Below, piece after piece: positions 13,616-13,849 of a stretch of DNA of 24,000 bases. Every line of letters begins with the position of its first letter. Position 1 is the first letter of the stretch. Source of the stretch: Clostridia bacterium (GTDB taxonomy: Bacteria > Bacillota > Clostridia > UBA1381); the NCBI GenBank assembly GCA_900756545.1, contig CAAEKO010000034.1:48662-72661 (forward strand), read 5' to 3'. The notes under the pieces were generated by a model, which saw only the letters and a list, made by a program, of their open reading frames with translations, ran no database searches and was not told the DNA's origin. The translations under genes and the position numbers were made by a program.

Positions 13616-13638
13616 TGTAAATATCCTTTCACATAAGT

Positions 13639-13673
13639 AAAAGCCGTTCTACCAAGAAAGCAGAACGGCTTTT
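13639..13673 (-). terminator. intrinsic terminator/attenuator located between a promoter and the nuclease-like gene
   Basis: Perfect 12-bp stem aaaagccgttct (13639-13650) / agaacggctttt (13662-13673) with an 11-nt loop. On the minus strand it is followed by UUUUAC, and it ends ~12 nt before the SD of the 13615 gene. Confidence 0.7.
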
Positions 13674-13814
13674 AGTGCATTTTCTTTCGGCATTAAGCCT
13701 ACGCCGATTTGAGGTTACACTACACAAACCCCTCCCGAAAGCTCCGTATGCCAACGCATATCGGCACGCCGACACACATCTACGCTTTAACAGACACACC
13801 TGTTGCCTGTTGCT
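13674..13814 (-). ncRNA. ~140-nt GC-enriched structured leader or small RNA of unknown class
   Basis: Bounded by a consensus promoter upstream and a terminator downstream. Contains local hairpins (UAUGC-GUUG-GCAUA, UCGG-CGUG-CCGA, GGGGUU-N10-AACCUC). It also has mutually exclusive pairings: CUUUCGG...CCGAAAG versus UCGGC...GCCGA. Dispersed repeats GUGUGUC, GCGUAG and UCGGCGU are present. No coding potential. Confidence 0.45.
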
Positions 13815-13820
13815 AATATT

Positions 13821-13849
13821 ATTATACTCAAAACTTTAAAATATGTCAA
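13821..13849 (-). promoter_or_regulatory. perfect-consensus sigma-A promoter (TTGACA-17-TATAAT) driving the leader and nuclease-like gene
   Basis: On the minus strand: TTGACA at 13849-13844, a 17-nt spacer, TATAAT at 13826-13821. It lies 41 nt downstream of the STAND gene stop. Confidence 0.7.

What the first reader, a model, noticed from the sequence alone, without database searches (positions are those of the whole stretch)
13616..13849. Consensus promoter, ~140-nt structured RNA and intrinsic terminator immediately upstream of the nuclease-like gene
On the minus strand, a perfect TTGACA-17-TATAAT (13849-13821) is followed by a GC-enriched, non-coding ~140 nt with several stable hairpins and mutually exclusive long-range pairings. 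Next comes a 12-bp perfect-stem terminator with a U-tract (13673-13639) and, only ~12 nt later, the SD and ATG of the nuclease-like gene. The strongest promoter in the region is thus set up to terminate before the gene it precedes.

This is the architecture of a riboswitch or attenuator, or of a type III toxin-antitoxin locus (antitoxin RNA - terminator - endoRNase toxin). I saw no long tandem repeats like ToxI, only dispersed short repeats (GCAACAG x2, GUGUGUC x2, UCGGCGU x2). I could not match the RNA to any riboswitch class from memory.
Basis: partly seen in the sequence, partly recalled or inferred. Interest (0 to 1): 0.7.

Follow-up and report, generated by a model that had tools for sequence, protein, structure and literature searches.

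The report
Drum small RNA with PBECR4 nuclease
The structured RNA is a copy of the already catalogued "drum" small RNA, whose function is unknown; here and in about a hundred other genomes it forms a fixed two-part cassette with a predicted RNA-cutting protein, which suggests, but does not prove, that the RNA keeps that protein in check.

Summary
On the minus strand there is a perfect TTGACA-17-TATAAT promoter, a ~140-nt structured non-coding stretch, a 12-bp terminator, and then the SD and ATG of a PBECR4 gene.

The RNA is not new. It matches Rfam drum (RF02958) over the full model at 81 bits against a threshold of 43. Drum's function is unknown.

Across about 100 non-redundant drum loci I found:
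- The promoter, a 5' hairpin absent from the Rfam model, the drum core and the terminator recur as one unit.
- PBECR4 lies directly downstream on the same strand in 67 of 101 loci (19 of these fragmentary).
- 81 of 83 loci found through PBECR4 have drum upstream, as do four cultured Enterococcus and Streptococcus plasmids.
- Genes on either side are unrelated from locus to locus.
- PBECR4-less drums in phage contigs lie inside tRNA gene arrays.

No antiterminator pairing exists, so a riboswitch or attenuator is unlikely.

My best reading (about 0.4) is a type III toxin-antitoxin-like pair. Abundant terminated drum RNA would neutralise a read-through-expressed RNase. However, two defining type III features, repeat RNA and a ToxN-family toxin, are not met, and nothing has been tested experimentally.

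The parts
13821..13849 (-). Sigma-70-type promoter: -35 TTGACA (13849-13844), 17-nt spacer, -10 TATAAT (13826-13821). The inferred transcription start is near 13814-13813.
   Evidence: the only 12/12 site in 11-16 kb; a match of at least 10/12 lies at the same distance (-10 ending 85-91 nt before GGGUU) in 72 of 106 drum loci, against 1 of 106 in shuffles; 35 are perfect. The flanks TTGACATATTTT and TATAATAATAGTA are also conserved.
13789..13811 (-). 5'-terminal hairpin 'P0': stem AACAGGCA/UGUCUGUU, loop ACAGGUG. It is part of the transcript but lies outside the 112-position Rfam drum model.
   Evidence: at least 6 perfect pairs in 92 of 108 loci, against 25 in shuffles; 54 distinct stems; 87% of cells paired, all 8 pairs show compensatory changes, slid controls give 30-53%, and 0 of 500 shuffles reach the covariation score.
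13670..13787 (-). Drum RNA core (Rfam RF02958): helices P1-P4 and the conserved boxes GGAGC, GGGGUU, AACCUCAA and CGAAAGAAAA.
   Evidence: 81.1 bits against a gathering score of 43, E = 4e-14, model positions 1-112 of 112; 89.7 bits with my own model R1. P1 and P2 are 92% paired across 80 distinct sequences, with covariation exceeded by 0 of 500 shuffles.
13633..13673 (-). Intrinsic terminator ending the drum transcript: stem 13673-13662 / 13650-13639, then UUUUACUUAU.
   Evidence: Read and folded; a terminator starts 4-12 nt after CGAAAGAAAA in 67 of 67 PBECR4-linked drum loci.
13613..13629 (-). Shine-Dalgarno AAAGGA (13629-13624) and the ATG (13615-13613) of PBECR4. There is no room for a separate promoter.
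   Evidence: The only promoter-like site here is a 9/12 match whose -10 overlaps the ATG.
13031..13615 (-). PBECR4 gene, 194 aa, a predicted metal-independent BECR-fold RNase, expressed by read-through of the drum terminator.
   Evidence: PF18813, E = 3e-40, positions 1-187 of 188; 329 homologues; 1744 clusters at 50% identity. AF2 model with pLDDT 90.6. RNase activity is predicted only (PMC5512222).
12951..12981 (-). Terminator-like hairpin 50 nt after the PBECR4 stop codon; it closes the cassette.
   Evidence: 12-pair stem followed by a T-rich tail.
13030..13873 (-). Extent of the mobile cassette (promoter, drum, terminator, PBECR4) as defined by homology.
   Evidence: L073 and L117 share 84-88% identity with the window only over 13030/13041-13867/13873 and have different flanks. 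L042 and L110 match only within this interval.
13890..16244 (-). Context only: an upstream STAND-type NTPase with TPR repeats (784 aa). It is not a conserved partner of drum.
   Evidence: the upstream neighbours of 89 drum loci fall into 119 Pfam families, none found in more than 3 loci. The same protein appears only in close relatives (L100, L139).

Best explanation
Identity (near certain, about 0.97). The element is a gene for a drum small RNA, Rfam RF02958. A consensus promoter starts a transcript of about 175 nt near 13814. The transcript consists of a 5' hairpin, the pseudoknotted drum core and an intrinsic terminator ending near 13636. Promoter, RNA, terminator and the PBECR4 gene form one ~840-bp cassette that moves between unrelated genomic contexts.

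Mechanism (inferred, about 0.4). Most transcripts stop at the terminator, giving an abundant, stable RNA. A minority read through and are the only source of PBECR4 mRNA. So RNA always exceeds protein. I propose that drum RNA binds PBECR4, a predicted colicin-D-like RNase, and holds it inactive. It might do so by mimicking the enzyme's conserved cellular RNA substrate. In that case the cassette would behave like a type III toxin-antitoxin or abortive-infection module on mobile elements. Phage-borne drum copies without PBECR4, expressed among phage tRNA genes, would act as antidotes.

Shown: identity, anatomy, linkage, and the asymmetry of that linkage. Inferred: binding, toxicity, neutralisation, and the phage counter-defence role.
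For: Identity:
- Rfam hit at 81.1 bits against a threshold of 43, covering the full model.
- P1/P2 covariation and 5' hairpin covariation.

Unit of transcription:
- A promoter at a fixed distance in 72 of 106 loci, against 1 in shuffles.
- A terminator in 67 of 67 PBECR4-linked loci.
- No room for a PBECR4 promoter.

Linkage:
- PBECR4 is directly downstream on the same strand in 67 of 101 drum loci: 48 intact and 19 fragmentary.
- Drum is upstream in 81 of 83 loci found through the protein, including relatives at 28-31% identity.
- Drum reaches the Rfam gathering score upstream of PBECR4 on all four cultured Enterococcus and S. suis plasmids examined.

No protein partner:
- Upstream genes, genes after PBECR4, and neighbours of PBECR4-less drums are all heterogeneous. 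By general knowledge, characterised BECR toxins such as colicins D and E5, CDI toxins and RelE have a protein immunity or antitoxin partner.

Asymmetry expected of toxin and antidote:
- PBECR4 almost never occurs without drum.
- Drum often occurs without PBECR4, or next to a broken PBECR4.

Phage copies:
- PBECR4-less drums lie in tRNA arrays on the same strand in about six phage lineages.

Context:
- Plasmids, relaxases, recombinases, and AbiH, TIR and AAA neighbours.
- The cassette alone is shared between different contexts.
Against: - There is no experiment of any kind. PBECR4 toxicity, RNase activity and RNA binding are all untested. Foldseek found no solved structure at E <= 0.001, so even the fold assignment rests on Pfam and Iyer et al. 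2017.
- PADLOC has no model for this protein.
- The RNA is not a repeat array, and the protein is not in a known type III toxin family.
- The unpaired boxes of drum (GGGUU, ACCNCAA, CGAAAGAAAA) stay nearly invariant while PBECR4 falls to about 30% identity. This is unusual for a co-evolving antitoxin. It could mean the RNA contacts something more conserved than PBECR4.
- A third of drum copies lack PBECR4, so the RNA may have a function of its own.
- The protein-first sample of 80 metagenome loci is dominated by one lineage at about 49% identity, so it gives far fewer than 80 independent observations.
- Some 'fragmentary' PBECR4 genes may be assembly errors or locus edges.
Confidence: 0.4

Rival explanations
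1. Drum RNA is a positive partner of PBECR4 rather than its inhibitor. It could be a cofactor, scaffold, guide or dedicated substrate in a ribonucleoprotein, with the terminator only setting the stoichiometry.
For: This rests on the same obligate linkage and co-transfer of the cassette. The strong conservation of unpaired nucleotides is typical of RNAs with a sophisticated role (PMC5737381). There is co-divergence of RNA and protein: L167 has a divergent drum next to a PBECR4 at 31% identity.
Against: Drum copies persist beside broken PBECR4 genes and without any PBECR4. The phage contigs that carry drum in tRNA arrays were not among the six IMG/VR contigs with a recognisable PBECR4, although that search has limited sensitivity. 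A cofactor without its enzyme is hard to explain.
Confidence: 0.2
2. Drum is an independent trans-acting small RNA with its own cellular or phage target, such as tRNA metabolism, the ribosome or another protein. PBECR4 merely uses its promoter through read-through.
For: Rfam classes drum as an sRNA. 34 of 101 copies stand alone with their own promoter, and most have a terminator. Phage copies sit among tRNA genes. The boxes are more conserved than PBECR4.
Against: It does not explain why PBECR4 of this clade is found behind drum in 81 of 83 protein-first loci and in all four cultured plasmids, at a fixed 45-60 nt spacing. It also does not explain why the two move as one cassette.
Confidence: 0.15
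3. Drum is a cis-acting riboswitch or attenuator. A ligand or factor would decide whether the terminator forms, and so whether PBECR4 is made.
For: It lies between a promoter and the gene, with a terminator in front of the SD. Its conservation pattern resembles that of an aptamer.
Against: The terminator starts 4-12 nt after the last drum helix and never overlaps it. The terminator arms vary freely and show no excess complementarity to the drum body: 6.35 against 6.30 in shuffles. 34 of 101 copies have no downstream PBECR4, and 16 lack a terminator. Weinberg et al. judged drum an improbable riboswitch.
Confidence: 0.08
4. The fold acts in single-stranded DNA, as a conjugative leading-region promoter or single-strand origin, and not as RNA.
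For: Some plasmid copies lie near ssb, Y-family polymerase and large SNF2 or helicase genes typical of leading regions.
Against: A canonical double-stranded promoter precedes the fold and a terminator follows it in most loci. No promoter hexamers lie inside the stems. Phage copies sit in tRNA arrays.
Confidence: 0.02

Closest known systems
Drum RNA motif (Rfam RF02958; Weinberg et al. 2017, PMC5737381)
   Same: It matches the full-length model at 81 bits, with the same helices and conserved boxes and a 3' intrinsic terminator. The paper also noted that drum is rarely a 5' UTR element and has a compelling association with a nearby protein.
   Different: Nothing essential differs. This copy, like most others, carries a 5' hairpin and a conserved promoter that the Rfam model does not cover. 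The supplement naming the associated protein was not available to me, so I cannot say whether the PBECR4 link was already reported.
Type III toxin-antitoxin systems (ToxIN, CptIN, TenpIN)
   Same: The order is the same: promoter, RNA gene, intrinsic terminator, endoRNase gene without its own promoter. They are likewise carried on plasmids and mobile elements. The RNA can occur without the protein. From general knowledge, phage-borne copies are reminiscent of pseudo-ToxI in phage phiTE.
   Different: The RNA here is a single pseudoknotted unit of about 140 nt, not a tandem array of 34-36-nt repeats. The protein is PBECR4 (BECR fold, predicted), not a ToxN-family protein. Processing, complex formation and toxicity are untested.
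DUF3800-I, skipping-rope and FuFi-1 motifs (Weinberg et al. 2017)
   Same: These are highly conserved structured RNAs that end in terminators, are unlikely to be riboswitches or ribozymes, and are tied to one nearby protein family.
   Different: Their folds and partner proteins differ. In my sample drum's partner is always downstream on the same strand.
Transcription-terminating riboswitches and attenuators
   Same: A structured leader followed by an intrinsic terminator just upstream of an SD.
   Different: There is no overlap or competing pairing between fold and terminator, and many copies have no downstream gene.
BECR-fold toxins with protein immunity (colicin D/E5, CDI toxins, RelE)
   Same: According to Pfam and Iyer et al. 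2017, the protein belongs to the same predicted fold superfamily, with a colicin-like active site.
   Different: No conserved protein gene accompanies PBECR4; the only conserved neighbour is an RNA. The fold was not confirmed against solved structures.

Membership tests
drum RNA (Rfam RF02958) | Covariance-model score at or above the curated gathering score (43 bits), over the whole model | tested here: met
   81.1 bits, E = 4e-14, model positions 1-112 of 112, window 13787-13670, minus strand.
drum RNA (Rfam RF02958) | Helices P1 and P2 supported by covariation; conserved boxes GGAGC, GGGUU, ACCNCAA and CGAAAGAAAA | tested here: met
   All boxes are present in the window. P1 and P2 are 92% paired, with 16 of 16 pairs showing double changes across 80 distinct sequences. 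P3 and P4 were poorly aligned by my rough model (59-66% paired), so I did not re-verify them.
drum RNA (Rfam RF02958) | Rho-independent terminator at the 3' end (Weinberg et al. 2017) | tested here: met
   The terminator lies at 13673-13639. One is present in 93 of 109 loci examined.
Type III toxin-antitoxin | RNA gene, then terminator, then toxin gene in one transcription unit | tested here: met
   for the window; for 67 linked loci.
Type III toxin-antitoxin | Antitoxin RNA made of tandem direct repeats that the toxin cuts into units | tested here: not met
   Tandem Repeats Finder reports only 2.1 copies of a 7-mer. The RNA is a single-copy fold. Cleavage cannot be tested with these tools.
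Type III toxin-antitoxin | Toxin belongs to the ToxN/AbiQ, CptN or TenpN endoRNase families | tested here: not met
   Pfam reports only PBECR4, PF18813. PADLOC and NCBIfam give no hit.
Type III toxin-antitoxin | The protein is toxic, and direct RNA-protein binding neutralises it | not testable with these tools
   This needs expression, rescue and binding experiments.
Riboswitch / transcription attenuator | Terminator competes with an alternative pairing that involves the sensor fold | tested here: not met
   The terminator begins 4-12 nt after the fold. The longest complementarity between terminator arms and drum equals that of shuffled arms: 6.35 against 6.30, and 7.3 against 6.8.
Riboswitch / transcription attenuator | Consistently located in the 5' UTR of the regulated gene | tested here: not met
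   34 of 101 copies have no PBECR4 downstream, and their neighbours are heterogeneous. Ten viral loci, about six phage lineages, have the copy inside tRNA arrays.
Riboswitch / transcription attenuator | Binds a ligand | not testable with these tools
PBECR4 (Pfam PF18813) | Profile match above the gathering score over the full domain | tested here: met
   E = 3.3e-40, 138.9 bits against a cutoff of 27, positions 1-187 of 188.
PBECR4 (Pfam PF18813) | BECR (barnase/EndoU/colicin/RelE) fold and RNase activity | tested here: inconclusive

The most novel reading that the evidence does not exclude
Drum and PBECR4 would constitute a new class of RNA-antitoxin system. It would be type III-like, but with a single pseudoknotted RNA rather than repeats and a BECR-fold RNase rather than ToxN. 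The cassette is spread on plasmids and integrative elements across Clostridia, Bacilli, Spirochaetes and Bacteroidota assemblies. Phages would carry stand-alone drum genes inside their tRNA arrays as an RNA antidote to it.
Probability: 0.35. Interest if true: 0.8.

Novelty: new member of a known kind. Interest (0 to 1): 0.5.

Why it matters
Drum is one of a handful of widespread bacterial RNAs whose conservation suggests a sophisticated job. No function had been reported for it in the literature I could search.

The data here turn that open question into a concrete two-component test. There is one RNA and one 194-aa protein, and both are present on cultivable Enterococcus and Streptococcus plasmids. 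The expected results are clear: toxicity of the protein alone, rescue by the RNA, and a terminated RNA in excess over the mRNA.

If the RNA does neutralise a BECR-type RNase, three things would follow. RNA antitoxins would extend beyond the ToxN world. It would explain why this toxin-like family has no protein immunity gene. And it would add an RNA item to the list of phage counter-defences that travel with phage tRNA genes.

If it does not, the finding is simply one more typical copy of a known RNA family.

Tried and rejected
- The supplement of Weinberg et al. 2017, which names drum's associated proteins, is not held.
- Literature searches for drum, PBECR4, skipping-rope and DUF3800 found no functional study.
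- DNA searches with the cassette against plasmids (megablast) and with three drum sequences against cultured phages (blastn) gave nothing. A tblastn search of PBECR4 against phages also gave nothing.
- I looked for a conserved third gene and rejected the idea. Upstream neighbours fall into 119 Pfam families across 89 proteins. Genes after PBECR4 fall into 72 families across 54 proteins. Neighbours of PBECR4-less drums fall into 58 families across 68 proteins. The STAND NTPase upstream in the window is lineage-specific.
- I considered a tertiary contact between the 5' hairpin loop and the ACCNCAA box. Loops ending in GAG go with ACCACAA, and loops ending in GUG go with ACCUCAA. That is A with A and U with U, so it reflects shared ancestry, not base pairing.
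- The search for an antiterminator was negative.
- A single-stranded-DNA promoter or origin reading was rejected, because a canonical promoter and terminator flank the fold.
- My first covariance model was built on a MAFFT alignment and misaligns P3 and P4, so I did not use it to judge those helices or the pseudoknot.
- RNAalifold on the raw alignment recovered only P2.

Full report
**1. What is in the window**

On the minus strand, TTGACA (13849-13844), a 17-nt spacer and TATAAT (13826-13821) form the only perfect sigma-70 match in 11-16 kb. The region as a whole holds no more promoter-like sites than chance.

Downstream lie about 140 nt with no convincing reading frame. The stretch folds well: -69.3 kcal/mol, z = -4.34, and 0 of 200 shuffles fold as well.

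Next comes a hairpin, AAAAGCCGUUCU / AGAACGGCUUUU (13673-13639), followed by UUUUACUUAU. The terminator scan missed it only because its loop is 11 nt. With G-U pairs the stem reaches 15 pairs.

The SD AAAGGA (13629-13624) and the ATG (13615) open a 194-aa ORF. This ORF is a full-length PBECR4 domain, PF18813, E = 3e-40. Between terminator and ATG there is no usable promoter. There are no tandem repeats.

**2. What the RNA is**

A scan of the whole window against Rfam gives a single hit: drum RNA, RF02958, at 13787-13670 on the minus strand. It scores 81.1 bits against a gathering score of 43 and covers model positions 1-112 of 112.

Drum was described by Weinberg et al. [quoted passage not shown] The authors judged these motifs improbable riboswitches or ribozymes. 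[quoted passage not shown] The supplement with the details is not held. I found no later paper on its function.

That is a pseudoknot-type arrangement, not a switch.

**3. Related loci**

A covariance model built here confirmed most of them. After removing duplicates, 111 distinct drum loci remained.

These features recur:
- **Promoter.** A match of at least 10/12 lies at a fixed distance in 72 of 106 loci, against 1 of 106 in shuffles. 35 are perfect, and the flanking sequence is also conserved.
- **5' hairpin.** An 8-bp hairpin follows the promoter directly and is not part of the Rfam model. It is 87% paired, all eight pairs show compensatory changes, and slid controls give 30-53%. In the window it lies at 13811-13789.
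- **Core helices.** P1 and P2 are 92% paired, with strong covariation.
- **Terminator.** One begins 4-12 nt after CGAAAGAAAA in all 67 loci that have PBECR4, and in 26 of 42 that do not.

**4. Linkage to PBECR4**

Starting from the RNA: 101 loci have at least 400 nt of downstream DNA. Of these, 48 have an intact PBECR4 and 19 have a frameshifted, truncated or partial one. In every case the gene is on the same strand and starts a median of 53 nt after the drum core. The other 34 have none.

Starting from the protein: 83 loci were recovered with a PBECR4 alignment, and 81 have drum upstream on the same strand. One of the two exceptions has only 33 nt of upstream DNA. The other appears to have lost the RNA. 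The 80 metagenome loci are dominated by one lineage, so they are not 80 independent cases. However, relatives at 28-31% identity (L165-L167) also carry drum or a divergent version of it.

As an independent check on cultured material, I examined four of the 20 Enterococcus and Streptococcus suis plasmids that encode PBECR4 at 32-35% identity. All four have a drum hit above Rfam's own gathering score directly upstream.

Nothing else is conserved. Upstream genes, genes after PBECR4, and neighbours of PBECR4-less drums are each a mixed bag. L073 and L117 share only positions 13030/13041-13867/13873 with the window, and L042 and L110 match only within that interval. A Ruminococcus MAG (L100) is 95-96% identical across 10 kb except for an insertion sequence. 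The cassette of promoter, drum, terminator and PBECR4 is thus a self-contained mobile unit of about 840 bp.

**5. Drum without PBECR4**

In viral contigs, 14 of 19 distinct drum loci lack PBECR4. Ten viral loci, representing about six phage lineages, have the RNA inside tRNA gene arrays on the same strand. In places it lies within 0-20 nt of a tRNA, and usually it has no terminator.

The six IMG/VR contigs with a recognisable PBECR4 are different contigs. That search depends on exact peptide words, so it would miss distant relatives.

**6. How it most likely works**

*Shown.* The RNA has its own strong promoter and terminator. The protein gene has no promoter and sits behind that terminator. 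RNA and protein gene travel together. The protein gene is almost never without the RNA, whereas the RNA is often alone or beside a damaged protein gene. No protein partner is conserved.

*From the literature.* PBECR domains are predicted metal-independent RNases with a colicin-D-like active site, used in conflicts between mobile elements and hosts (PMC5512222; a 2026 preprint).

*From general knowledge.* Characterised BECR toxins come with protein immunity or antitoxin partners. Type III toxin-antitoxin loci have the order promoter, RNA, terminator, toxin, and the terminator sets an excess of RNA over toxin.

*Inferred.* Drum RNA binds and neutralises PBECR4. The cassette acts as an addiction or abortive-infection module. 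Phage stand-alone drums act as antidotes. I give this about 0.4.

The main argument against it is that drum's unpaired boxes stay almost invariant while PBECR4 diverges to about 30% identity. That would be easier to understand if the RNA mimics, or acts on, a universally conserved cellular RNA or machine. No experiment exists.

**7. Rivals**

- A positive ribonucleoprotein role for drum (0.2) fits the linkage. It does not fit the stand-alone copies or the copies beside broken genes.
- An independent sRNA whose promoter PBECR4 borrows (0.15) fits the stand-alone copies but not the near-obligate, fixed-distance linkage.
- A riboswitch or attenuator (0.08) is disfavoured. The terminator does not overlap the fold. 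Its arms have no more complementarity to the fold than shuffled arms. A third of copies regulate nothing.
- A single-stranded-DNA element (0.02) is contradicted by the flanking promoter and terminator.

**8. Comparison with known systems, and novelty**

Membership in the drum family is met on every feature I could test. Membership in type III toxin-antitoxin systems is not. The operon layout is met, but the repeat RNA and the ToxN-family toxin were tested and not met, and toxicity and binding cannot be tested here. So it may work like type III, but it should not be filed as type III.

The RNA itself is a typical new member of a known family, and its function remains unknown. Three points are not in the literature I could reach and may add something:
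- the strictly downstream, same-strand PBECR4 partnership and its asymmetry;
- the 5' hairpin and the conserved promoter;
- the placement of phage copies in tRNA arrays.

Part of the protein association may already be in the 2017 supplement.

**9. Verdict**

Interest is moderate at 0.5: it is a known RNA family, but now with a sharp, testable functional hypothesis.

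Noticed in passing
window 13789-13811 (-); alignment A7: An 8-bp hairpin at the 5' end of the transcript, with a loop of the form AC..G(U/A)G, precedes the drum core in most loci. It is not covered by the 112-position Rfam model. It may stabilise the 5' end.
   Followed up: yes
window 13821-13873 (-); listing: The promoter is conserved beyond its hexamers, as TTGACATATTTT ... 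TATAATAATAGTA, across many Clostridia loci. This suggests the promoter is inherited as part of the cassette.
   Followed up: partly
L003, L016, L018, L020, L023, L025, L029, L033, L034, L035: Drum copies without PBECR4 in phage contigs lie inside tRNA gene arrays on the same strand. In L034 the drum 3' end abuts tRNA-Val, and in L020 and L023 tRNA-Trp ends 16 nt upstream. Most of these copies have no terminator.
   Followed up: partly
L223 2400-2990: Two complete drum units in tandem, each with its own TTGACA-17-TA(C/T)AAT promoter, 5' hairpin and terminator. Only the second is followed by PBECR4.
   Followed up: partly
window 11156-13008: A DDE transposase insertion sequence (ORF 11199-12854) is present here but absent from the otherwise 95-96% identical Ruminococcus MAG contig L100. 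It was inserted just after the PBECR4 terminator.
   Followed up: partly
window 16687-17223 and 17329-18372 (+): A large serine recombinase appears split into two ORFs: the resolvase N-terminal domain, and the Recombinase, zinc-ribbon and DUF4368 domains. This may be a frameshift or a pseudogene.
   Followed up: no
window 13890-16244 (-): A 784-aa STAND-type NTPase with TPR repeats lies directly upstream, with no terminator before the drum promoter. It has weak PADLOC and NCBIfam hits only. It is shared with the close relatives L100 and L139 but is not a general drum neighbour.
   Followed up: partly
L167 2700-2900; L249 2355-2463; L250 2338-2447: Divergent drum variants exist. L167 keeps GGAG, UAGG and CGAAAGAAAA but lacks GGGUU and ACCNCAA. 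The S. suis (L249) and E. faecalis (L250) plasmid copies lack the P4 hairpin. In L249 and L250 Rfam still scores the variant above threshold (46.4 and 50.0 bits). L167 was not scanned with Rfam and scored only 31.9 bits with my own model. Each sits before a PBECR4 at about 30-35% identity.
   Followed up: partly
L053, L056, L063, L066, L112, L154, L157, L160 and others: About a quarter to a third of the PBECR4 genes next to intact drum RNAs in genome assemblies are frameshifted or truncated. MAG assembly errors and locus edges are not excluded.
   Followed up: partly
L063 and L130: Two different contigs of one genome, Alitiscatomonas aceti, each carry a drum-PBECR4 cassette. The cassette also turns up in Treponema, Bacteroides, Phocaeicola and Barnesiella assemblies, and drum alone in a Parasutterella assembly. 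This points to horizontal transfer or mis-binning.
   Followed up: no
L239 1300-1600: This is the one PBECR4 locus with enough upstream DNA and no drum. The gene is preceded by a GC-rich hairpin (GGGGGAGGGUGUGA...UCACACCCUCCCUC) instead.
   Followed up: no
L248-L251 (Enterococcus and S. suis plasmids): Neighbours of the cassette include ssb, a Y-family polymerase, a thermonuclease, very large SNF2 or DEAD-box proteins, AbiH, and TIR and AAA genes. From memory, this fits the expansion of the name drum as 'DNA repair, uptake or modification', and it fits a defence or establishment region of conjugative elements.
   Followed up: no
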